Part shown: positions 4,719 to 50,596 of the stretch, in pieces | Numbering within the stretch: the stretch's first letter is position 1 | Layout: every line of letters begins with the position of its first letter | DNA from: Escherichia phage LHE287 | Sequence record: PP761450.1 | Strand: one strand, 5' to 3' | DNA: 64,000 nt | Notes under the pieces: model-generated | What the model saw: only the letters and a program-made list of their open reading frames with translations | The model's database searches: none | What the model was told of the DNA's origin: nothing | Program-made: the position numbers and the translations under genes

Positions 4719-5513
4719 TTAACTGAAACTCTTGTATGCTGCTGCGAGCTTCTTGTCGTACTGGTTCTTGGCATACGCCGGACCATTATAGCGCCGTGCA
4801 AATTCAGACCAGTTCTTGTCCTTCAGAGCCTGCCAGAGCTTGGCGTCAGCCTTGATGAACTTCACGAATGCCATCAAATGAGCACGTTCTCCTGTCAGGA
4901 AGTCGTTGAACATCTCCTTGGCGTTGGCATATCCACAGACCTGGCAGTTGAATCCCATGATCTGGAAGAGACCGTAAGAGGCGCTCTCGTACGCACAATC
5001 CTCATCGATGTTGATGGCCGCATGAAGTCGATCCAACTCCGCGTCGCCTCCCGTGTACCCGCCTGCGGAAGGACTGACCAACGTCGGGTACATATGTCCC
5101 ATGGCATTCGCCCGAGCCTGTCCGAACTTCGCCATCAGCTTCTTATACATGATGTGGCGCTCAAATAATGTCTTGATCTTACCTGACTTGGTGAAGCCCG
5201 TACCGCGCGACTCAACCTGATTCACCGCCTTGACAGAGGCAAGGTCAACACCCAGATCATTAGCAGCATCAATCAGGTCTGACTCAGTTAGATGATCCTG
5301 ATGGGCGTCTCCGGCGTTGCGAATAGCATAGGAGGTCTTTGGACCTACGATACCATCAATGACAAGCCCCGCACCCGCCTGAACAGTCTTGACGGCGTTC
5401 TCTGTTGCCTTGCCAAAGATACCATCAGCGACGAGGGTGAAGCCGATTTTGTTGAGGCTATTCTGAAGTGCCTTCACTTCAGTGCCACGGTTGCCAAGTT
5501 TTAGAATGGCCAT
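4719..5513 (-). CDS. endolysin: peptidoglycan-binding repeats plus muramidase-like C-terminal domain
   Basis: start refined to ATG 5513 (GGAGG SD; track start 5531 is TTG); two PG-binding-like repeats then YGLFQIMGFN...NWSEFARRYNGP region. Confidence 0.7.
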   Translation of the reverse strand: MAILKLGNRGTEVKALQNSLNKIGFTLVADGIFGKATENAVKTVQAGAGLVIDGIVGPKTSYAIRNAGDAHQDHLTESDLIDAANDLGVDLASVKAVNQVESRGTGFTKSGKIKTLFERHIMYKKLMAKFGQARANAMGHMYPTLVSPSAGGYTGGDAELDRLHAAINIDEDCAYESASYGLFQIMGFNCQVCGYANAKEMFNDFLTGERAHLMAFVKFIKADAKLWQALKDKNWSEFARRYNGPAYAKNQYDKKLAAAYKSFS

Positions 5514-12578: not shown

Positions 12579-13217
12579 TTACGGCGTCAGATTCACAACC
12601 GGAATGTGGGATCGAATACCTGCGATGATGTCCTTCAGCCGAGGATTCCATCCATCCACCAAACGGGGGAGAGCGATAGCGCCAGGCTGGACCAAAATGA
12701 TGTCGCTGCCTGTGATATTGTGCTGAGGGAACTGGGCAAGGTACTGCTCCATGGTGACACCCTCATCAATCAGAACTGCACCGACGTCAGACGATGCGTA
12801 GGTTGCACCCAGGCCGTCAACACCCCATGCCAAGATACCCCAGTCAGGGATGTTAGCTTCAGATGTGATGGTGAATCCAAACACGGTGTTCAGCGAAGTA
12901 AAGGAGTAGACATCGTGGGTGATGTCATACACCAGATACCCCTTGGCCAGCATATCGGCAAAGATCGCGTCCGTATCGCCAGCAGCCGGAGTCGGTACAG
13001 TAAACAACAGCTCGCCATCAGGAGGAGCAGGATACGTGCCGAGGGCATAGAGGCACCATGCGTCAATACACTTCTTGATAAATGCCTCTGGCGCGACATA
13101 ATCAGCAAGGCGAACCGTACCTGAGTACTCTGATACGATAATGCCTTCCTTCGCACCCTGTAGAGCAATGAAGACCAAGATATGTTCATATCCGGCCTGA
13201 GATGGAGTGATGTTCAT
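12579..13217 (-). CDS. hypothetical protein (212 aa)
   Basis: ATG 13217 overlaps upstream stop (TAATG); AAGAGGA SD. Confidence 0.55.
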   Translation of the reverse strand: MNITPSQAGYEHILVFIALQGAKEGIIVSEYSGTVRLADYVAPEAFIKKCIDAWCLYALGTYPAPPDGELLFTVPTPAAGDTDAIFADMLAKGYLVYDITHDVYSFTSLNTVFGFTITSEANIPDWGILAWGVDGLGATYASSDVGAVLIDEGVTMEQYLAQFPQHNITGSDIILVQPGAIALPRLVDGWNPRLKDIIAGIRSHIPVVNLTP

Positions 13218-13831
13218 TATCTTGTCCTCTTCAGTTTCTCTATTGTGTGCTTGTTCATGGCGATCACCTGAGGATCTACCTCGGAGATGGTCCGGCCTTC
13301 GAAAGACACACATTTCTGAAGATATTTAGCTTTCTTCACGACGTCGGCAGCATAAGCGTTCGATGCGGGATTACGGGCGAAGCCAGCATTGTAAGAGGAG
13401 AGGGATTTGCGGATATTCTGATTGTGATAGGTCAGCCAGAACTGCATCTCATCGAGGGCGGCTTGCGCGGCATATTCTTGGTCGGTCAGCAACTTTATGG
13501 CGACATTGGCATAACACTTGCGATTCTTACAACCTTCGCGATCACCAACTGTCTTCACCTTGTTCTGAAAGGCTCCCATGTTGGCCGCCTTGAGGCCGTA
13601 TCGCATTGACACTACATCTTCGCCAGCGCGGCTCTCTCGCCAAGATATGGCGGCCAGCGTGTAGCCAAGATCTTGTGTCTTGCCTACGTGATAGGCGGTT
13701 GCCATCGTATTAAGTTGTTGCTCGGAGAAATTATAAACACATTGACTTGTATTTTGGGAAGCGTGCACATTCCCGCTGGCAATGGTAAAGGTCACGGACA
13801 AGGCCATGGCCTTCAACGTTGTCATCGTCAT
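13217..13831 (-). CDS. secreted protein, possibly lytic-transglycosylase-like
   Basis: N-terminal signal-peptide-like segment MTMTTLKAMALSVTFTIASGNVHAS; ISWRESRAG...MGAFQ loosely resembles SLT ES...GxMQ pattern; AAGGAA SD. Confidence 0.45.
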   Translation of the reverse strand: MTMTTLKAMALSVTFTIASGNVHASQNTSQCVYNFSEQQLNTMATAYHVGKTQDLGYTLAAISWRESRAGEDVVSMRYGLKAANMGAFQNKVKTVGDREGCKNRKCYANVAIKLLTDQEYAAQAALDEMQFWLTYHNQNIRKSLSSYNAGFARNPASNAYAADVVKKAKYLQKCVSFEGRTISEVDPQVIAMNKHTIEKLKRTR

Positions 13832-13928: not shown

Positions 13929-14213
13929 TCATTCGTAGATGAGGTGGTAGGATTCCTCGATACACTCCAGCCAGCCATAGACGAACTGTAGAGGGTCATC
14001 CCATGCCGTCTTGGTCGCGACGGTAAAGTTGCCGTCCAGGATCTGCATATCTTGGTACTTGTTGAAAGCGAGTACAGCATCAACCACAATCAGGCCGCCC
14101 TGCTCAAGATAACGATTCGGAGTGACGGTCACTTGGTAATGAGGATTCCTGCGATTCCATATCTCCACAGCAATGTCACAGGATTCCTGAATTTCATCTT
14201 TGTTTTCTGACAT
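13929..14213 (-). CDS. hypothetical protein (94 aa)
   Basis: ORF followed by strong terminator hairpin. Confidence 0.45.
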   Translation of the reverse strand: MSENKDEIQESCDIAVEIWNRRNPHYQVTVTPNRYLEQGGLIVVDAVLAFNKYQDMQILDGNFTVATKTAWDDPLQFVYGWLECIEESYHLIYE

Positions 14214-14523
14214 ACGTTTGTCTCAGATGTTCAGTAAAGGATTTACCCAGCTTGCGGAATAGTTTAATACGCCCGACGACTTTGACGTAAACATCTCCGT
14301 GGCAGGGGCGCGGCTTACACCAGCACCCCAATACCTTCCCGTCAAGATCAAGGAGTTCATCCTCAGTGATATCCCCTTCAATCAGGCGCACATACAGGTC
14401 GTCCTCAAACAGTTCGATACAGACGCCTCGTCCATGGTCTTTGACCTCAAACGGGTTCCCCCATTTACCAGGCCGACCAATGTAGACGTCATATGGCTCC
14501 TTCTTGAAGTGGACGACTTTCAT
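14194..14523 (-). CDS. small conserved protein with YIGRP..WGNPF and CWCKPRPCHGDV motifs (DUF4326-like)
   Basis: 109 aa; motif pattern recalled from a widespread uncharacterised family; start ATG overlaps stop of upstream small ORF. Confidence 0.5.
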   Translation of the reverse strand: MKVVHFKKEPYDVYIGRPGKWGNPFEVKDHGRGVCIELFEDDLYVRLIEGDITEDELLDLDGKVLGCWCKPRPCHGDVYVKVVGRIKLFRKLGKSFTEHLRQTYVRKQR

Positions 14524-14684
14524 TTCAGGATTTGACCTGCAAGTAGATAACAGAACCAGACAGAGAACCCGAGATACCCCAGTGATTTCAGGTAGTTTTT
14601 CCTTTCGACTTCACGAGAAAATGCAACGATGTCAATGATGCATGCAAAGATCAGTATTGCGAGTTTAATTTGTTCGTAGTTCAT
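14520..14684 (-). CDS. small hydrophobic membrane protein (54 aa), not in ORF track
   Basis: own translation MNYEQIKLAILIFACIIDIVAFSREVERKNYLKSLGYLGFSVWFCYLLAGQILK; AAGGA SD 7 nt upstream; start 2 nt after gp46 stop, stop overlaps next start. Confidence 0.4.
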   Translation of the reverse strand: MNYEQIKLAILIFACIIDIVAFSREVERKNYLKSLGYLGFSVWFCYLLAGQILK

Positions 14685-14686
14685 GA

Positions 14687-17032
14687 TCAATCCTTCTTGA
14701 TAACTTCAGTCAGGCCGTTTCGCAGGCCGTAGCGAATATTGTGTTGGAAGTATTCCTGGAACTCCTGCTCACGCTGGCTGATGACAAACAGGTTGTTCCC
14801 ACCGAACTTATGCTTCAACATCTCAACCGATTCCTGCACCCCGCGCTCGCTCATGTTCTCAAGGATCTCGTCCAGAACGAACAGGTTACATTGTACAGAC
14901 GCCTTGAGGTTAGCCACATCGCGCAGAGCTAATGTCACCGCCAGATTCAGGCGGCTCCGCTGGCCAGTAGACAGGGAGAAGATACTCTGTCCTTTGCGGC
15001 CTGCTGCGCTCATGGTGATCTCAAAGGTATCGTCAACAACGATGTCCAAGAACATGTTGAGGGCTTCAAGATACTCGTTGATCTTGCTATTGAGGAATGG
15101 CAGATACAGGGCGATGATACGCGCCTTGGTCTGGTCATCTTTCAAGAAGAACAGCAGGTGCTGTAAGTCCTGGAGTTCCTCATCTGCATCTTCACGGAGT
15201 TCATACAGAGACTCCAGTTCACCTTCCAACGCAGCGATAGAGTTCTCTAGGTCGGTGGTAGGTGTTGGCTGTACAGCCAGTTTACGCTCCAGATCGGCAA
15301 TAGACGCCACGAGAGGAGCACGACGGGCTTTCAGCTCGGCGATCTTATCATCGACGGCTTTAATCCCGCTGACGGCGTTCTCTCGCGTCTGTTGCAGCGA
15401 CGCAGTGATGTCTTCAAAACGAACGTTCAGTGCCTTACGGATGTCAAGGATCTTCTGTTGGCATTCACGGTTCAGCGAATTACACTCAATCGTGGCGGCA
15501 TCATGAAAACCTTGAATATCACGGCGCAGCTGCTTGATGTTGTCAACGATTTCGTCGGCCTGCTTGCGCATTGCATCCAGTTCAGCATCTAACACAGCAA
15601 TGTCAGCAACCAACTTATCGTCCTGAGCCTTGTGATCATCGATCAGCACAGTGACTTCAGCGGTGACTTTGTCCAGTTGATCTAACTTCGACTGTAGTTC
15701 CTGGATCTGAGGATTGTACTCGCTTTCAATACGCGCCTTGGTATCGTCGGACACCAGTTGGGTACATGTTGGGCAAGTCCCCATATCGTGGAAGCGCTTG
15801 ATGGCCGACTGGTGGCCATCCATTTCGGTCTGGAACTTGATGCGGAAGTTCTCACCCTGTTGGCGACGCTGGATAGCAGCGTTCAGGGCGTCCAGATTTG
15901 TGTTGCGCTCGGTGAGCAGGGTGTTCTTGCGTTCGGCCACTGTAAAGGCGCGGTCACGCAAGACCTGAAGATCATGCTCCGCAGTAGACACTTCGATGCG
16001 CTCATAATCGTCAGCCTTGTCCTGCGCGGCGTCCTTCACCGCCTGGATCTTGGTATCAAAGTCTTTCTTGACAGCCTCGATCTCTACCATGGATTCATCA
16101 TGCAGGCGGCTTTCCACCGTCTTCATTTCCTGGGTGGCTTCAAACTCCACAGCCGTGAGGCGGGTGCGCTCTTCATTCTGGGCGGCGATGTCAGCGTCTA
16201 GGGAAGTCAGGGCTTCCTGTTGCTGTAGAAGGATATCGGCCGATTGCTGTCGGATCAGGGCGTTGGATTGCTCGATCTGCTGAAGCTGCGTCTTCTTGTT
16301 GGTGTGGTCAACAACCTTCAGTGCGCATTCGTTAGATATAGAGTCCAGAGTTGCATTTGTCCTTTTGATGGCGACCTTGACATCTTCGTTCATCAGGCTG
16401 AAGAAGCCCAAGTCCCAGATAGTCTCCACCATCGCGCGGCGGTCGGCTGTGTACATCTCCGTGAACGGAATGAACTTCTCTTTACCTAACACCAGAGAGT
16501 TCTCAAACATCTTCTGGTCCACGCCGATGAGGTTCACGATGTACTTGTTCATGTCGGCTTTGGCTGCTTCGTTATCGATCTGCAACCACTTGCCGTCCAC
16601 CATCTGGTAGACTTCAACAAAGTCGGGCTTGATACCCCGGCGAACCTTCCATTCGCTACCACGGCAGGCAAACTCCACCTCACCCACACATTCCTTGCGG
16701 CTCTGTGAGTTAACCAGGCCTGCCTTCTTCTCCTTCTTGCTGTATGTGTCGTTGTACAGTACGAAAAACAGCAGCCATACCAGCATCGTGGATTTACCCG
16801 CGCCGTTGTCATCAGACGTGACAAGGGTGGCCGGGTTGCGCTGATAATCAATCTCCATGAACTGATTGCCGATGGAGCGGAAGTTCTTGGCGCGGCCTTT
16901 GCGGAAGGTTAGTTTGTGTGTAACAACGTTACGCACTTCAAATGGGACTTCAACCTCGACCGGGGCGTCGGCTTCCTTCAAAAGATTACCAAATTTGGTC
17001 AAGATATCTGTGCTCTGAGTCATGTTATGCAT
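14687..17032 (-). CDS. gp46: recombination/repair ATPase, SbcC/Rad50-like (T4 gp46-like)
   Basis: 781 aa; Walker A DDNGAGKST, zinc-hook CPTC, ABC signature LSTGQRS, Walker B LFVLDE; long coiled-coil middle. Confidence 0.9.
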   Translation of the reverse strand: MHNMTQSTDILTKFGNLLKEADAPVEVEVPFEVRNVVTHKLTFRKGRAKNFRSIGNQFMEIDYQRNPATLVTSDDNGAGKSTMLVWLLFFVLYNDTYSKKEKKAGLVNSQSRKECVGEVEFACRGSEWKVRRGIKPDFVEVYQMVDGKWLQIDNEAAKADMNKYIVNLIGVDQKMFENSLVLGKEKFIPFTEMYTADRRAMVETIWDLGFFSLMNEDVKVAIKRTNATLDSISNECALKVVDHTNKKTQLQQIEQSNALIRQQSADILLQQQEALTSLDADIAAQNEERTRLTAVEFEATQEMKTVESRLHDESMVEIEAVKKDFDTKIQAVKDAAQDKADDYERIEVSTAEHDLQVLRDRAFTVAERKNTLLTERNTNLDALNAAIQRRQQGENFRIKFQTEMDGHQSAIKRFHDMGTCPTCTQLVSDDTKARIESEYNPQIQELQSKLDQLDKVTAEVTVLIDDHKAQDDKLVADIAVLDAELDAMRKQADEIVDNIKQLRRDIQGFHDAATIECNSLNRECQQKILDIRKALNVRFEDITASLQQTRENAVSGIKAVDDKIAELKARRAPLVASIADLERKLAVQPTPTTDLENSIAALEGELESLYELREDADEELQDLQHLLFFLKDDQTKARIIALYLPFLNSKINEYLEALNMFLDIVVDDTFEITMSAAGRKGQSIFSLSTGQRSRLNLAVTLALRDVANLKASVQCNLFVLDEILENMSERGVQESVEMLKHKFGGNNLFVISQREQEFQEYFQHNIRYGLRNGLTEVIKKD

Positions 17033-48712: not shown

Positions 48713-48812
48713 GATATAGATCCTTCCTTTCAAAGAATGTTGTGTTCGTCGATATCGGACTGCGTTGCAATCTCCCAGCGGACGATGTTCTCGGTTGTGA
48801 CGAAATCACGGT

Positions 48813-48956
48813 TCAGGTGAGAGGCTGGCACATACACCATCGTGTCTCGACCATGAAGTAACACTGCTCATTGTTACAAGAATCAACGTAAACCTCGATG
48901 AGGCACACCTCGGCAACACCGGCTTTCGGCTTCTTCACAGTCTTTTTCAAGTACAT
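48813..48956 (-). CDS. small Cys-rich ORF (47 aa), not in ORF track
   Basis: own translation MYLKKTVKKPKAGVAEVCLIEVYVDSCNNEQCYFMVETRWCMCQPLT; GAGGG SD. Confidence 0.3.
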   Translation of the reverse strand: MYLKKTVKKPKAGVAEVCLIEVYVDSCNNEQCYFMVETRWCMCQPLT

Positions 48957-49019
48957 GGTACAACCCTCGGATAGTAGACGGGGCAATAATACCTCTCACC
49001 CCGTTATTGAAATGTTCTT

Positions 49020-50492
49020 TTAGTTCAAGACATATTTGATCAGTCCACAATTCCAAATCCTGACCAGCCCGGCTTCGGTTGCTAACTGGCTTTCTGTTTT
49101 GCCTTCTACGTCATACCCCATGCGAGCAAATGAACCTTTTCTGAAACCGAATTTGTGCTCACGCATAAATGTGCCAGGCTTGTGGTATTTGTAGTCTGGC
49201 TTCTGTACTTCCTCTTCTACGAATCCGTGGGATAGGTAAATGTTGGACAACCTGCTTACAACACACCTATCCCCAAAGGAATAGATTTTGGTGTCGGTAA
49301 ATTTTCTTCTGAAGTGTGAAAGAAGTTTACTGAATGCCCCGTGGCAATCATTAGAGGCAAATCTGACTAATTCCAGGCCATCTTTCCTTTTAGTGAATAG
49401 CATCACGGCTTGTATGACCCCACTCTTGTCAATTAACGACAAATGGTGGGTGGAAGAAACGGAACCTTGTATGTGGTGGTTGTCTAAAAACTCCCTCAAG
49501 CCGCTTATATTCCCCCAAACGACTTTGTGTTGGCGAGCATATGACGCGGGTGTTTTAATGCCAAGTTTAGCTTTCAGAAGAGATTTGACCACTTCCTGTT
49601 TCTCAACCCATTCATCTTCCCAGATGTGGATCAACTGGATACCCTGAGTTTCACATATTTCAGTCTTTTCCAGGTGATAATGTTTCTCTTTAAAAACTTC
49701 TGAATGCCAGTACAGGCCATTAAATTCGATCGCCAATTTGTGTTCAGGGCAATAGATATCCAGTTGTTTACCGGATAATATACTGTAATCAGAAACAGTG
49801 TTTACAACTCCCATTGAGGTGAGAAACTCGGATATTTCCTTTTCATAAGAAGATTTCTTGTTCCTGATAGAACCATTGCTGAACAACGCACGTTTTAGTA
49901 TGTTCGAGTTTTTCATAGGGTTGTCAACACCATAACGTTCTTGTAACGTTGCCAACGCCTTCTCCCTCACACCAGGTAATTGTAGTGTGGAGCAGCTTCC
50001 GTATTTGGATATATTCGAATTCTCTATGGCTTTCCGACCAATCCCACCTTTACACATAGAAACCTGATAACATTCTTCAGAACAATATGTTCTGTAATCT
50101 TTATTATTGATATAAAAGTTGGTTTCCTTGGAACACACCGGGCATATTTTCACGGTTCTATTGTACAGCCAAGCTGTGACTTTACAAGCCAAATCTTGTA
50201 GGGTGTTGTGGGTATTGGCGAACACTAAAAGGTCTACATTGATGTGCTTCATAAGCAGTTCAGATTTGCATTTTTGGATATCCAATTTGTTGTTCTTGGT
50301 AAACATATATTTGTAGAAAAATTGGCGATATGATTCCTCGTCAGACAATTCATTCACTGCTTCAAGGAAACCTTCCGGGAGGTTCTTTAGGGTGTTCGAT
50401 GCGAAGGTCTTGCAAGCATCTGAACAAAATTTCTTATCTTTCCTGGATGCTTTGAACTGTTCATGGCAGACACTACAGATTACCTGATACAT
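49020..50492 (-). CDS. nuclease-like protein with N-terminal zinc ribbons; candidate free-standing homing endonuclease
   Basis: ATG 50492 with GGAGGA SD; CxxC pairs (CSVCHEQ, CSDAC, CPVCSKE, CSEEC); IEFNGLYWHSE block; AT-rich codon usage versus neighbours. Confidence 0.55.
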   Translation of the reverse strand: MYQVICSVCHEQFKASRKDKKFCSDACKTFASNTLKNLPEGFLEAVNELSDEESYRQFFYKYMFTKNNKLDIQKCKSELLMKHINVDLLVFANTHNTLQDLACKVTAWLYNRTVKICPVCSKETNFYINNKDYRTYCSEECYQVSMCKGGIGRKAIENSNISKYGSCSTLQLPGVREKALATLQERYGVDNPMKNSNILKRALFSNGSIRNKKSSYEKEISEFLTSMGVVNTVSDYSILSGKQLDIYCPEHKLAIEFNGLYWHSEVFKEKHYHLEKTEICETQGIQLIHIWEDEWVEKQEVVKSLLKAKLGIKTPASYARQHKVVWGNISGLREFLDNHHIQGSVSSTHHLSLIDKSGVIQAVMLFTKRKDGLELVRFASNDCHGAFSKLLSHFRRKFTDTKIYSFGDRCVVSRLSNIYLSHGFVEEEVQKPDYKYHKPGTFMREHKFGFRKGSFARMGYDVEGKTESQLATEAGLVRIWNCGLIKYVLN

Positions 50493-50540
50493 AATTATTC
50501 TCCTCCATATGGTATCTAGTATAACCTGTTCGATAATATG

Positions 50541-50568
50541 AACAAATAAAAACCCCGCCGAAGCGGGG
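50541..50568 (-). terminator. strong rho-independent terminator after major capsid gene
   Basis: CCCCGC-CGAA-GCGGGG then TTTTTATTTGTT on minus strand. Confidence 0.8.
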
Positions 50569-50596
50569 TTTGTCAGGGTTAAGGACAACTATTCGA

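What the first reader, a model, noticed from the sequence alone, without database searches (positions are those of the whole stretch)
14520..14684. Unannotated small ORFs: a 54-aa hydrophobic protein after gp46 and a 47-aa Cys-rich ORF at 48813-48956
Both fall below the ORF-track size cutoff but have good Shine-Dalgarno sequences and tight coupling to neighbours. The 54-aa ORF starts 2 nt after the gp46 stop and its stop overlaps the next start; it contains two hydrophobic segments. The 47-aa ORF has six Cys.
Basis: seen in the sequence. Interest (0 to 1): 0.35.

Follow-up and report, generated by a model that had tools for sequence, protein, structure and literature searches.

The report
One known mini-gene, one frameshifted fragment
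The 54-codon frame is a genuine small membrane-protein gene already annotated in relatives of this Ag3-like phage, while the 47-codon "cysteine-rich" frame is only the front half of a conserved 74-codon gene that a 2-base insertion has broken in this genome; both results are ordinary.

Summary
The window is an Ackermannviridae (Ag3-like) phage, and both ORFs lie on the minus strand.

ORF-A (14684..14520, 54 aa) is as described:
- It starts 2 nt after the gp46 stop, has a GAAGGA Shine-Dalgarno, overlaps the next gene by ATGA, and has two hydrophobic helices.
- It is a real gene. It matches PHROG 34593 full length, is under purifying selection, and its exact protein is called in 109 blocks of public assemblies.
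- It is not new. Shigella phage Ag3 annotates it as a two-transmembrane protein, and the 2011 Ag3 paper lists it as a formal holin candidate.
- It is an accessory cassette in a variable slot between gp46 and a DUF4326 gene.
- It lacks holin hallmarks and lies 9 kb from the endolysin. Its function is unknown; I favour an intramembrane modulator.

ORF-B (48956..48813, 47 aa) exists but has 5 Cys, not 6, and is not tightly coupled to its neighbours:
- It is the 5' part of a conserved 74-aa gene (PHROG 7113), disrupted by a GA duplication at 48848..48845 that no other public sequence carries.
- Two of its Cys lie in the out-of-frame tail, and the other three are not conserved.
- The family's invariant core is lost from this frame.
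- Whether the insertion is a real mutation or a sequencing error cannot be decided here.

The parts
14520..14684 (-). ORF-A: a 54-aa two-helix membrane mini-protein, MNYEQIKLAILIFACIIDIVAFSREVERKNYLKSLGYLGFSVWFCYLLAGQILK
   Evidence: Searches give the coordinates. It matches PHROG 34593 over its full length at E 5e-40. It is annotated in Ag3 as a 2-TM membrane protein. The exact protein is found in 109 blocks of public assemblies.
14687..17032 (-). Upstream gene: gp46 (Rad50/SbcC-like recombination endonuclease subunit, 781 aa). Its last codons carry ORF-A's Shine-Dalgarno.
   Evidence: One search lists the ORF. Relatives annotate it as gp46. Homologues on related contigs hit Pfam SMC_N.
14691..14700 (-). 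First copy of the 10-mer TCAAGAAGGA, at the gp46 3' end. It contains ORF-A's SD.
   Evidence: The window has 3 copies against 0.15 expected by chance.
14498..14507 (-). Second copy of the 10-mer TCAAGAAGGA (codons 6-9 of the DUF4326 gene). The two copies bracket ORF-A.
   Evidence: The same 10-mer is the fusion point of a chimeric junction in L017.
14194..14523 (-). Downstream gene: a 109-aa DUF4326 (T4 NrdA.1-like) protein whose start overlaps ORF-A's stop (ATGA).
   Evidence: Pfam PF14216 at E 3e-23. The overlap is shown.
48813..48956 (-). ORF-B as reported: 47 aa, made of residues 1-36 of a 74-aa gene plus an 11-residue out-of-frame tail (ETRWCMCQPLT).
   Evidence: It matches only positions 3-38 of the 76-position PHROG 7113 profile.
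48845..48848 (-). GAGA on the gene strand where all relatives have GA. This 2-bp duplication sits in codon 37 and causes the frameshift.
   Evidence: Alignment; coordinates. It is absent from every other sequence searched.
48730..48864 (-). Displaced 3' part of the 74-aa gene. It holds the family's invariant core (VYVPASHLNRDF...RWEIATQSDIDEH) and is now in another frame. Possible starts are GTG 48864 or ATG 48840.
49020..50492 (-). Upstream neighbour of ORF-B: a 490-aa homing-endonuclease-like gene.
   Evidence: Relatives annotate it as a homing endonuclease. It gives sub-threshold Pfam matches to MTES_1575 and DUF559 nuclease domains.
13217..13831 (-). Context: a 204-aa protein with a signal-like N-terminus and a GH23 lytic-transglycosylase fold. 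Many records mislabel it 'RegB'.
4719..5510 (-). Context: the phage endolysin (PG_binding_1 + N-acetylmuramidase), 9 kb from ORF-A.
   Evidence: Pfam PF11860 at E 6e-59 and PF01471 at E 8e-15.

Best explanation
ORF-A is a genuine gene. It encodes a 54-residue protein made almost entirely of two transmembrane helices joined by a short, positively charged loop. By the positive-inside rule this predicts a hairpin with the loop in the cytoplasm and both ends outside (inferred). It is translated as part of the gp47-gp46-ORF-A-DUF4326 run of same-strand genes. Its ribosome-binding site lies in the last gp46 codons and its stop overlaps the next start; that arrangement is shown, while actual coupling is inferred.

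ORF-A is an accessory, exchangeable cassette. The slot between gp46 and the DUF4326 gene holds none, one or several such mini-proteins in different relatives, in at least five or six sequence types. The slot is bracketed by a shared 10-mer (TCAAGAAGGA), and in one relative that 10-mer is the fusion point of a recombination scar.

The biochemical function is not known. Because the protein has almost no soluble part, the likeliest mode of action is contact with another protein inside the inner membrane, for example superinfection exclusion or modulation of a host membrane protein (inferred, about 40%). A holin role is less likely.

ORF-B is not a gene in its own right. It is the first 36 codons of a conserved 74-codon gene of unknown function (PHROG 7113) plus 11 out-of-frame codons. 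A 2-bp GA duplication in codon 37, unique to this sequence, created it. The insertion may be a very recent inactivating mutation or a sequencing/assembly error.
For: ORF-A. The anatomy is verified. It matches PHROG 34593 over its full length at E 5e-40. tblastn finds it in 37 phage records, 25 of them above 92% aa identity and 12 at 40-50%. Divergent copies keep the length, two hydrophobic segments and the ATGA overlap. dN/dS is 0.23-0.28 at dS 0.8-1.0 between BPS6/3HA11 and Kamild, and variable sites fall 19/6/21 by codon position. The exact protein is called in 109 blocks of public assemblies, and all five places examined show the same synteny. Ag3 annotates it as having two TM domains by Phobius and TMHMM.

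Accessory cassette. S8 and Mooltan lack it. KP6F1 has a different 51-aa hairpin. L017 has four small hairpin ORFs plus a chimeric DUF4326-5'/gp46-3' junction fused at the 10-mer. The 10-mer is enriched in the window, 3 copies against 0.15 expected. In ORF-A, Ag3 and allotria differ by 1 nt in 165 while their flanks are about 85% identical.

ORF-B. The 2-bp insertion is seen against ZQ1 and RPN242. Deleting one GA restores a 74-aa protein that differs from RPN242's at one residue and from ZQ1's at two. The intact gene is under purifying selection across the junction, with omega 0.17-0.25. The 47-aa ORF matches only profile positions 3-38 of 76, whereas the intact protein matches 3-76. No Cys is conserved and the invariant columns are residues 40-68. 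The insertion is absent from 41 phage records, IMG/VR and JGI metagenomes. The exact 47-aa product is on no public contig.
Against: No direct expression data were found for either ORF. The Ag3 and Sajous1 proteomics covered purified virions only. dN/dS within ORF-A type 1 rests on 5-11 substitutions and is not significant on its own. The proposed intramembrane-modulator role is inference from architecture and from the accessory, laterally exchanged pattern; nothing tests it. For ORF-B, a real mutation and a sequencing error cannot be separated without reads. The displaced C-terminal core could still be made from the ATG at 48840, because a natural 49-aa version carrying only that core exists in SilasIsHot (P0056).
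Confidence: 0.85

Rival explanations
1. ORF-A is the missing holin (or pinholin/antiholin) of this phage family. It would accumulate in the inner membrane and trigger lysis by releasing or activating a muralytic enzyme.
For: It is small and has two TM helices. Anany et al. 2011 list the Ag3 orthologue (gene 117, 54 aa) among five formal holin candidates and found no holin otherwise. Later papers also report no holin or spanin for ViI-like phages. A different mini-protein type in the same slot is labelled 'holin' in Maynard, RefSeq and PHROG 35473. A signal-bearing GH23 lytic-transglycosylase-like protein lies three genes downstream.
Against: There is no charged hydrophilic C-terminal tail: the protein ends 2-3 residues after TM2. 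The predicted topology has the loop in the cytoplasm and the ends outside, opposite to class II holins and pinholins (own knowledge of those families). There is no dual-start motif. It sits in the DNA-replication/recombination module beside gp55, gp47 and gp46, not with late genes. It lies 9 kb from the real endolysin. It is absent from the commonest Kuttervirus layout, as seen in S8 and Mooltan, which still lyse their hosts. The 'holin' label has no stated experimental basis, and ORF-A's own PHROG is 'unknown function'.
Confidence: 0.12
2. ORF-B is a functional 47-aa cysteine-rich (for example metal-binding) protein in its own right.
For: It has a good SD and ATG and five Cys in 47 residues, including a CxC pair.
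Against: The CxC pair (C41, C43) lies in an 11-residue tail that exists only because of a 2-bp insertion unique to this sequence. In intact relatives C27 is W and C32 is R in the family consensus, and C18 alternates with R; RC-2014 has no Cys at all. The exact product is in no public assembly. It loses the family's invariant core.
Confidence: 0.03
3. The 74-aa gene is not really broken in the phage. The extra GA is a sequencing or assembly error, and the virus makes the normal 74-aa protein.
For: The insertion is unique among all sequences searched. The displaced 3' half is identical to RPN242 at the nucleotide level, with no secondary decay. The gene is otherwise under purifying selection.
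Against: The context (GTC-GA-GA-CAC) is a dinucleotide duplication, not a homopolymer, so it is not a typical error site. The gene is dispensable or remodelled in other lineages: it is frameshifted in LIMEstone1 and has its N-terminal half replaced in allotria/SilasIsHot. A real loss is therefore plausible.
Confidence: 0.4
4. After the frameshift the gene works as two pieces. The conserved C-terminal core (36 aa, MVYVPASHLNRDF...) would be re-initiated from the ATG at 48840.
For: A natural 49-aa version that keeps only this core with an unrelated N-terminus is annotated in SilasIsHot (P0056). An in-frame ATG is present, and the insertion itself creates a GAG 6 nt upstream of it.
Against: The SD-like element is weak. 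There are no expression data. The N-terminal half is itself under purifying selection in intact genes (omega 0.14-0.17), so it is not a dispensable leader.
Confidence: 0.1

Closest known systems
Shigella phage Ag3 gp106 / orf00117 (YP_003358593.1), 'hypothetical membrane protein'; PHROG 34593
   Same: It has the same length (54 aa), 94% identity, the same position between gp46 and the NrdA.1/DUF4326 gene, and the same two predicted TM domains.
   Different: Nothing of substance: three amino-acid substitutions.
Maynard/MK-13 53-aa 'holin' (PHROG 35473)
   Same: It occupies the same slot, ends in the same ATGA overlap with the DUF4326 gene, and has the same size and two-helix architecture.
   Different: There is no significant sequence similarity to ORF-A. 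It follows a DUF7175 gene rather than gp46 directly. Its 'holin' name is an annotation without published evidence. Both types co-occur in L017, so they are not simple alleles.
Class II holins / pinholin S21-68 (own knowledge of the family)
   Same: They are small proteins with two TM helices.
   Different: ORF-A lacks the charged C-terminal cytoplasmic tail and a dual start. Its predicted topology is inverted. It is not next to an endolysin and lies in an early/middle-type module.
T4 small early membrane proteins such as Imm (superinfection immunity, 83 aa, two TM segments; own knowledge)
   Same: These are small inner-membrane proteins encoded among early or DNA-metabolism genes of a T4-related phage. 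They are non-essential and variable between relatives.
   Different: No sequence similarity was tested or claimed. ORF-A is shorter and has almost no extramembrane residues.
PHROG 7113 / Ag3 orf00181 (YP_003358641.1), a 74-75-aa hypothetical protein
   Same: ORF-B residues 1-36 align to the N-terminal half, with the same start codon, SD and neighbours.
   Different: The window copy carries a 2-bp insertion in codon 37. It therefore ends after 11 foreign residues and lacks the invariant C-terminal core.

Membership tests
PHROG 34593 (Ackermannviridae 54-aa membrane mini-protein) | Full-length match to the family profile | tested here: met
   E 5.1e-40, residues 1-54 on profile positions 1-54 of 54.
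PHROG 34593 (Ackermannviridae 54-aa membrane mini-protein) | Conserved position between gp46 (or DUF7175) and the DUF4326 gene, with an ATGA stop/start overlap | tested here: met
Holins (class II / pinholin type) | Small protein with at least one, typically two, TM helices | tested here: met
   The hydropathy profile shows two segments. Ag3's record cites Phobius/TMHMM predictions of 2 TMDs.
Holins (class II / pinholin type) | Highly charged, hydrophilic C-terminal cytoplasmic domain | tested here: not met
   The sequence ends ...LLAGQILK, leaving 2-3 residues after TM2.
Holins (class II / pinholin type) | Encoded next to the endolysin, in a lysis cassette, or among late genes | tested here: not met
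   The endolysin is at 4719..5510, 9 kb away. The neighbours are gp55, gp47, gp46 and DUF4326. The timing of expression itself is not testable here.
Holins (class II / pinholin type) | Required for lysis across the phage group | tested here: not met
   No small membrane ORF occupies this slot in S8 and Mooltan, and only about 46 of the 271 related records matched any of types T1-T3.
Holins (class II / pinholin type) | Hole formation or lethality on expression, triggerable by energy poisons | not testable with these tools
   This needs experiments.
PHROG 7113 (74-aa Ackermannviridae protein) | Full-length match including the invariant core VYVPASHLNxDF...RW.IA.Q.DI | tested here: not met
   The 47-aa ORF covers only profile positions 3-38 of 76. 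The invariant columns are residues 40-68. The locus as a whole (48956..48730) is a member, interrupted by a frameshift.
Cysteine-rich / zinc-binding small proteins | Cys residues conserved in homologues in a CxxC-type pattern | tested here: not met
   No Cys column is invariant. The consensus has W27 and R32. C41 and C43 are out of frame. There is no Pfam or NCBIfam hit.

The most novel reading that the evidence does not exclude
The gp46-DUF4326 junction of Ackermannviridae is a dedicated hot spot. Two-helix membrane mini-protein genes of several unrelated or barely related types are gained, lost and stacked there by recombination at a 10-bp microhomology (TCAAGAAGGA), and they move between subfamilies. 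These mini-proteins might be the family's still-unidentified lysis-timing proteins or host-range/exclusion determinants.
Probability: 0.15. Interest if true: 0.5.

Novelty: already known. Interest (0 to 1): 0.18.

Why it matters
The main value is for annotation quality. ORF-A should be annotated in this genome as the orthologue of Ag3 gp106. The ORF-B locus should be flagged as a frameshifted copy of a 74-aa gene, or re-sequenced, rather than called a new Cys-rich protein. More broadly, no holin or spanin has been identified for ViI/Ag3-like phages, which are widely proposed for biocontrol. A short, well-defined list of candidate membrane mini-proteins is therefore useful to anyone who wants to test lysis or superinfection exclusion experimentally, and so is the knowledge that the 'holin' label on one of them is unsupported.

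Tried and rejected
- **Family libraries for both proteins.** Pfam, NCBIfam and PADLOC gave nothing meaningful.
- **Structure of the 74-aa family.** The prediction was low-confidence (pLDDT 50), so I ran no fold search on it.
- **Transcription signals.** Sigma-70 promoter-like sites were at background level around both loci, and no terminator separates gp46, ORF-A and DUF4326. Timing therefore could not be inferred from signals.
- **Expression data in the literature.** Searches for transcriptomics or whole-cell proteomics of Ackermannviridae found nothing usable.
- **Programmed -1 frameshift rescuing ORF-B.** I rejected this because there is no X XXY YYZ slippery heptamer in the 50-nt overlap between the two frames (sequence).
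- **The 204-aa neighbour as the endolysin partnering ORF-A.** I weakened this idea. The protein does have a GH23 fold, but the phage has a canonical PG_binding_1 + muramidase endolysin elsewhere, and AV101 labels the 204-aa protein Vs.1.
- **A common origin for all mini-protein types.** T3 and T4 are clearly homologous, T4 is weakly similar to the T1+T2 profile, and T5 is unrelated.
- **Known RNA families.** Rfam found none in the window.

Full report
**Identity of the window.** Megablast places both loci in Ackermannviridae, subfamily Aglimvirinae. The closest records are Escherichia phages YX22, RPN242, A221 and ZQ1 at 96-98.5% identity, followed by Shigella phage Ag3. None of the searches made found a 100%-identical record. 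All genes at both loci are on the minus strand.

**ORF-A: the observation.**
- On the gene strand, gp46 ends ...ATC AAG AAG GAT TGA at 14701..14687, followed by a 2-nt spacer (TC).
- ORF-A runs from the ATG at 14684 to the TGA at 14522..14520 and encodes 54 aa.
- Its stop overlaps the ATG (14523) of the next gene as ATGA. That gene is a 109-aa DUF4326/NrdA.1-like protein (Pfam E 3e-23).
- The Shine-Dalgarno GAAGGA lies in the last gp46 codons.
- The protein is MNYEQIKLAILIFACIIDIVAFSREVERKNYLKSLGYLGFSVWFCYLLAGQILK. It has two hydrophobic stretches separated by SREVERKNYLKS.

**ORF-A is a real gene, and a known one.**
- It matches PHROG 34593 end to end at E 5e-40.
- tblastn finds it in 37 phage records. 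Twenty-five are above 92% aa identity, and 12 are at 40-50% in Kuttervirus (BPS6, 3HA11, heyday, moki) and Limestonevirus (Kamild, Ds3CZ).
- The divergent copies keep the 54-aa length, the two hydrophobic segments and the ATGA overlap.
- Between BPS6/3HA11 and Kamild, dN/dS is 0.23-0.28 at dS 0.8-1.0. Variable sites fall 19/6/21 by codon position.
- Within the window's own type, omega is about 0.3-0.4, but on only 5-11 substitutions.
- The exact protein is called as a gene in 109 blocks of public assemblies. All five places examined show the order gp47, gp46, ORF-A, DUF4326, 94-aa, 204-aa, DUF7270.
- Ag3 annotates it (gp106/orf00117) as a 'hypothetical membrane protein, two transmembrane domain found using Phobius and TMHMM'. 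A221, AV101 and CAU_YEP3 call it a 'putative membrane protein'.
- Anany et al. 2011 (PMC3121705) name gene 117 (54 aa) as one of five small TM proteins that formally fit holin criteria, and state that no holin or lysin was detected.
- ORF-A is therefore already known as a gene. Its function is not known.

**The slot is variable.**
- The commonest Kuttervirus layout, seen in S8 and Mooltan, has gp46, DUF7175 (102 aa) and DUF4326, with no membrane ORF.
- BPS6, Kamild and MK-13 have DUF7175 plus a mini-protein.
- The window, Ag3, A221, allotria, EspM4VN and CAU_YEP3 have the mini-protein alone.
- Taipeivirus KP6F1 has a different 51-aa two-helix ORF.
- A 33-kb metagenomic contig (L017) has four small two-helix ORFs in the gap, of 55, 57, 52 (uncalled) and 53 aa, plus DUF7175.
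- The MK-13/Maynard type (T3) is 49% identical to the uncalled L017 ORF (T4). T4 scores weakly above 300 shuffles of itself against the T1+T2 profile. T5 is unrelated.
- The gp46 3' end and the DUF4326 5' end share the 10-mer TCAAGAAGGA. In the window it sits at 14700..14691 and 14507..14498, bracketing ORF-A. The window holds 3 copies against 0.15 expected.
- L017 contains the junction ATGAAAGTCGTCCACTTCAAGAAGGA|TTGATCATG. This is the first 26 nt of DUF4326 fused, at that 10-mer, to the end of gp46 and the start of the next mini-ORF. It is the footprint expected from microhomology-mediated stacking of cassettes.
- Ag3 (Agtrevirus) and allotria (Kuttervirus) differ by 1 nt in the 165-nt ORF while their flanks are about 85% identical. 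T3 is 100% identical in Maynard, Marshall, EP75 and MK-13. Both patterns point to lateral exchange.
- ORF-A is 40% G+C against 49.5% for the window.

**What ORF-A does.** Nothing tests its function directly. The arguments on the holin idea are as follows.

For a holin role:
- It is small and has two TM helices.
- The literature reports no holin or spanin for ViI/Ag3-like phages.
- T3 carries a 'holin' label in the Maynard record, RefSeq and PHROG 35473.

Against a holin role:
- The Maynard paper gives no basis for that label.
- ORF-A has no charged C-terminal tail and no dual start.
- The positive-inside rule puts its loop in the cytoplasm, which is opposite to class II holins and pinholins (my own knowledge of those families).
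- It lies in the DNA-metabolism module with the helicase, RNase H, gp55, gp47 and gp46.
- The true endolysin (PG_binding_1 + N-acetylmuramidase, 4719..5510) is 9 kb away and has no TM ORF beside it.
- Relatives such as S8 and Mooltan lack any mini-protein in this slot.

I therefore favour an accessory intramembrane modulator, of the superinfection-exclusion or host-membrane-protein type, at about 0.4. I put the holin/pinholin reading at about 0.12. Both are inferences.

**ORF-B: the observation.**
- The ORF exists at 48956..48813 on the minus strand, with GAGGG 7 nt upstream of the ATG.
- It has five Cys, at positions 18, 27, 32, 41 and 43. Six are obtained only by starting at the TTG at 48986.
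- It begins 63 nt after the stop of the upstream homing-endonuclease-like gene and ends 100 nt before the next start. It is therefore not tightly coupled.

**ORF-B is a frameshifted fragment.**
- ZQ1 and RPN242 annotate a 74-aa CDS with the same start.
- The alignment shows GTCGAGACACG in the window where they have GTCGACACG. This is a GA duplication at 48848..48845, in codon 37.
- Removing one GA restores MYLKK...DTMVYVPASHLNRDFVTTENIVRWEIATQSDIDEHNIL. That protein differs from RPN242's at one residue, and its 3' half is identical to RPN242 at the nucleotide level.
- Intact genes are under purifying selection across the junction, with omega 0.17-0.25 overall.
- The 47-aa ORF matches PHROG 7113 only at profile positions 3-38 of 76. 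The intact protein matches 3-76 at E 3e-27.
- In 15 clusters of 74-75-aa homologues, the invariant block is residues 40-68. This is exactly what the 47-aa frame loses.
- No Cys is conserved. The consensus has W27 and R32, and C18 alternates with R. Ag3 has one Cys and RC-2014 has none. C41 and C43 are in the out-of-frame tail ETRWCMCQPLT.
- The insertion is absent from all 41 matching phage records, where RPN242 differs from the window only by the 2-bp gap. It is also absent from IMG/VR and from JGI metagenomes.
- The exact 47-aa product is on no public contig.
- No slippery heptamer lies in the frame overlap, so there is no case for programmed frameshifting.
- Reads would be needed to tell a real mutation from an error. 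I put the error reading at about 0.4.

**Other lineages of the ORF-B gene.**
- In LIMEstone1 the N-terminal half is replaced and the remainder is frameshifted.
- In allotria/SilasIsHot only residues 40-74 remain, behind a different N-terminus. This version is annotated as 49 aa in SilasIsHot.
- The gene is therefore dispensable or modular.
- The window's displaced core could conceivably be re-initiated from the ATG at 48840, but this is speculative.

**Function of the 74-aa family.** It stays unknown. There is no Pfam, NCBIfam or PADLOC hit, and the structure model is poor (pLDDT 50).

**Verdict.** ORF-A is real, conserved and already annotated and discussed in the literature. ORF-B is a truncated reading of a broken known gene, and its 'Cys-rich' character is an artefact. 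Interest is low. The only mildly new element is the cassette-array picture of the gp46-DUF4326 slot.

Noticed in passing
window 13217-13831 (-): Many public records name this 204-aa protein 'RegB' or 'RNA endonuclease'. It has a signal-like N-terminus (MTMTTLKAMALSVTFTIASGNVHA). It also carries the lytic-transglycosylase motifs with invariant E66 and S146-Y-N-x-G150. A confident AlphaFold model (pLDDT 86) finds its best PDB matches among GH23 enzymes (MltD, Slt70, MltE, EtgA). AV101 labels it Vs.1, and the Mooltan record notes an SLT domain. The RegB label looks like a propagated error.
   Followed up: yes
L017 4424-5519 (Logan ERR12726229 contig): The gp46-DUF4326 gap holds four two-helix mini-ORFs plus DUF7175; one of them (52 aa, about 5171-5329) was not called. 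It also holds a chimeric junction made of the first 26 nt of DUF4326 fused to the gp46 3' end at the shared 10-mer TCAAGAAGGA.
   Followed up: partly
window 14520-14684 versus L013 (allotria) and L002 (Ag3): ORF-A is 94-100% identical at the nucleotide level between a Kuttervirus and Agtreviruses, while the flanking genes are 81-88% identical. Likewise the T3 mini-protein is 100% identical across Maynard, Marshall, EP75 and MK-13. This suggests recent lateral exchange of the cassettes.
   Followed up: partly
L005 (LIMEstone1) about 1200-1320; L006 (allotria) about 1200-1305: The 74-aa gene family is decayed or remodelled in other lineages at about the same point (residue 37-40) where the window is frameshifted. 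The C-terminal half stays 87-94% identical even when the N-terminal half is replaced or the frame is broken.
   Followed up: partly
window 49020-50588 (-): The mechanical 522-aa TTG ORF of the homing-endonuclease-like gene runs through a strong terminator-like hairpin (50571..50550, AAACCCCGCTTCGGCGGGGTTT followed by a T run). The real start is probably the ATG at 50492, giving 490 aa as annotated in ZQ1. RPN242 and Ag3 carry an extra 66-aa gene next to ORF-B that the window and ZQ1 lack.
   Followed up: partly
window about 48978-49004 (-): A hairpin, ACGGGG-N15-CCCCGT, lies in the 63-nt gap between the endonuclease stop and the ORF-B start. Its stem is kept in ZQ1, RPN242 and Ag3. No Rfam family matches it.
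   Followed up: no
window 4719-5510 (-): This is the phage's canonical endolysin (PG_binding_1 + N-acetylmuramidase PF11860). It is flanked by a PhoH-like gene and a 174-aa ORF, with no small membrane ORF beside it. Lysis genes are therefore dispersed here, as in T4.
   Followed up: partly
window 14520-14684: ORF-A is 40% G+C against 49.5% for the whole window. This fits either a hydrophobic-codon bias or foreign origin.
   Followed up: no
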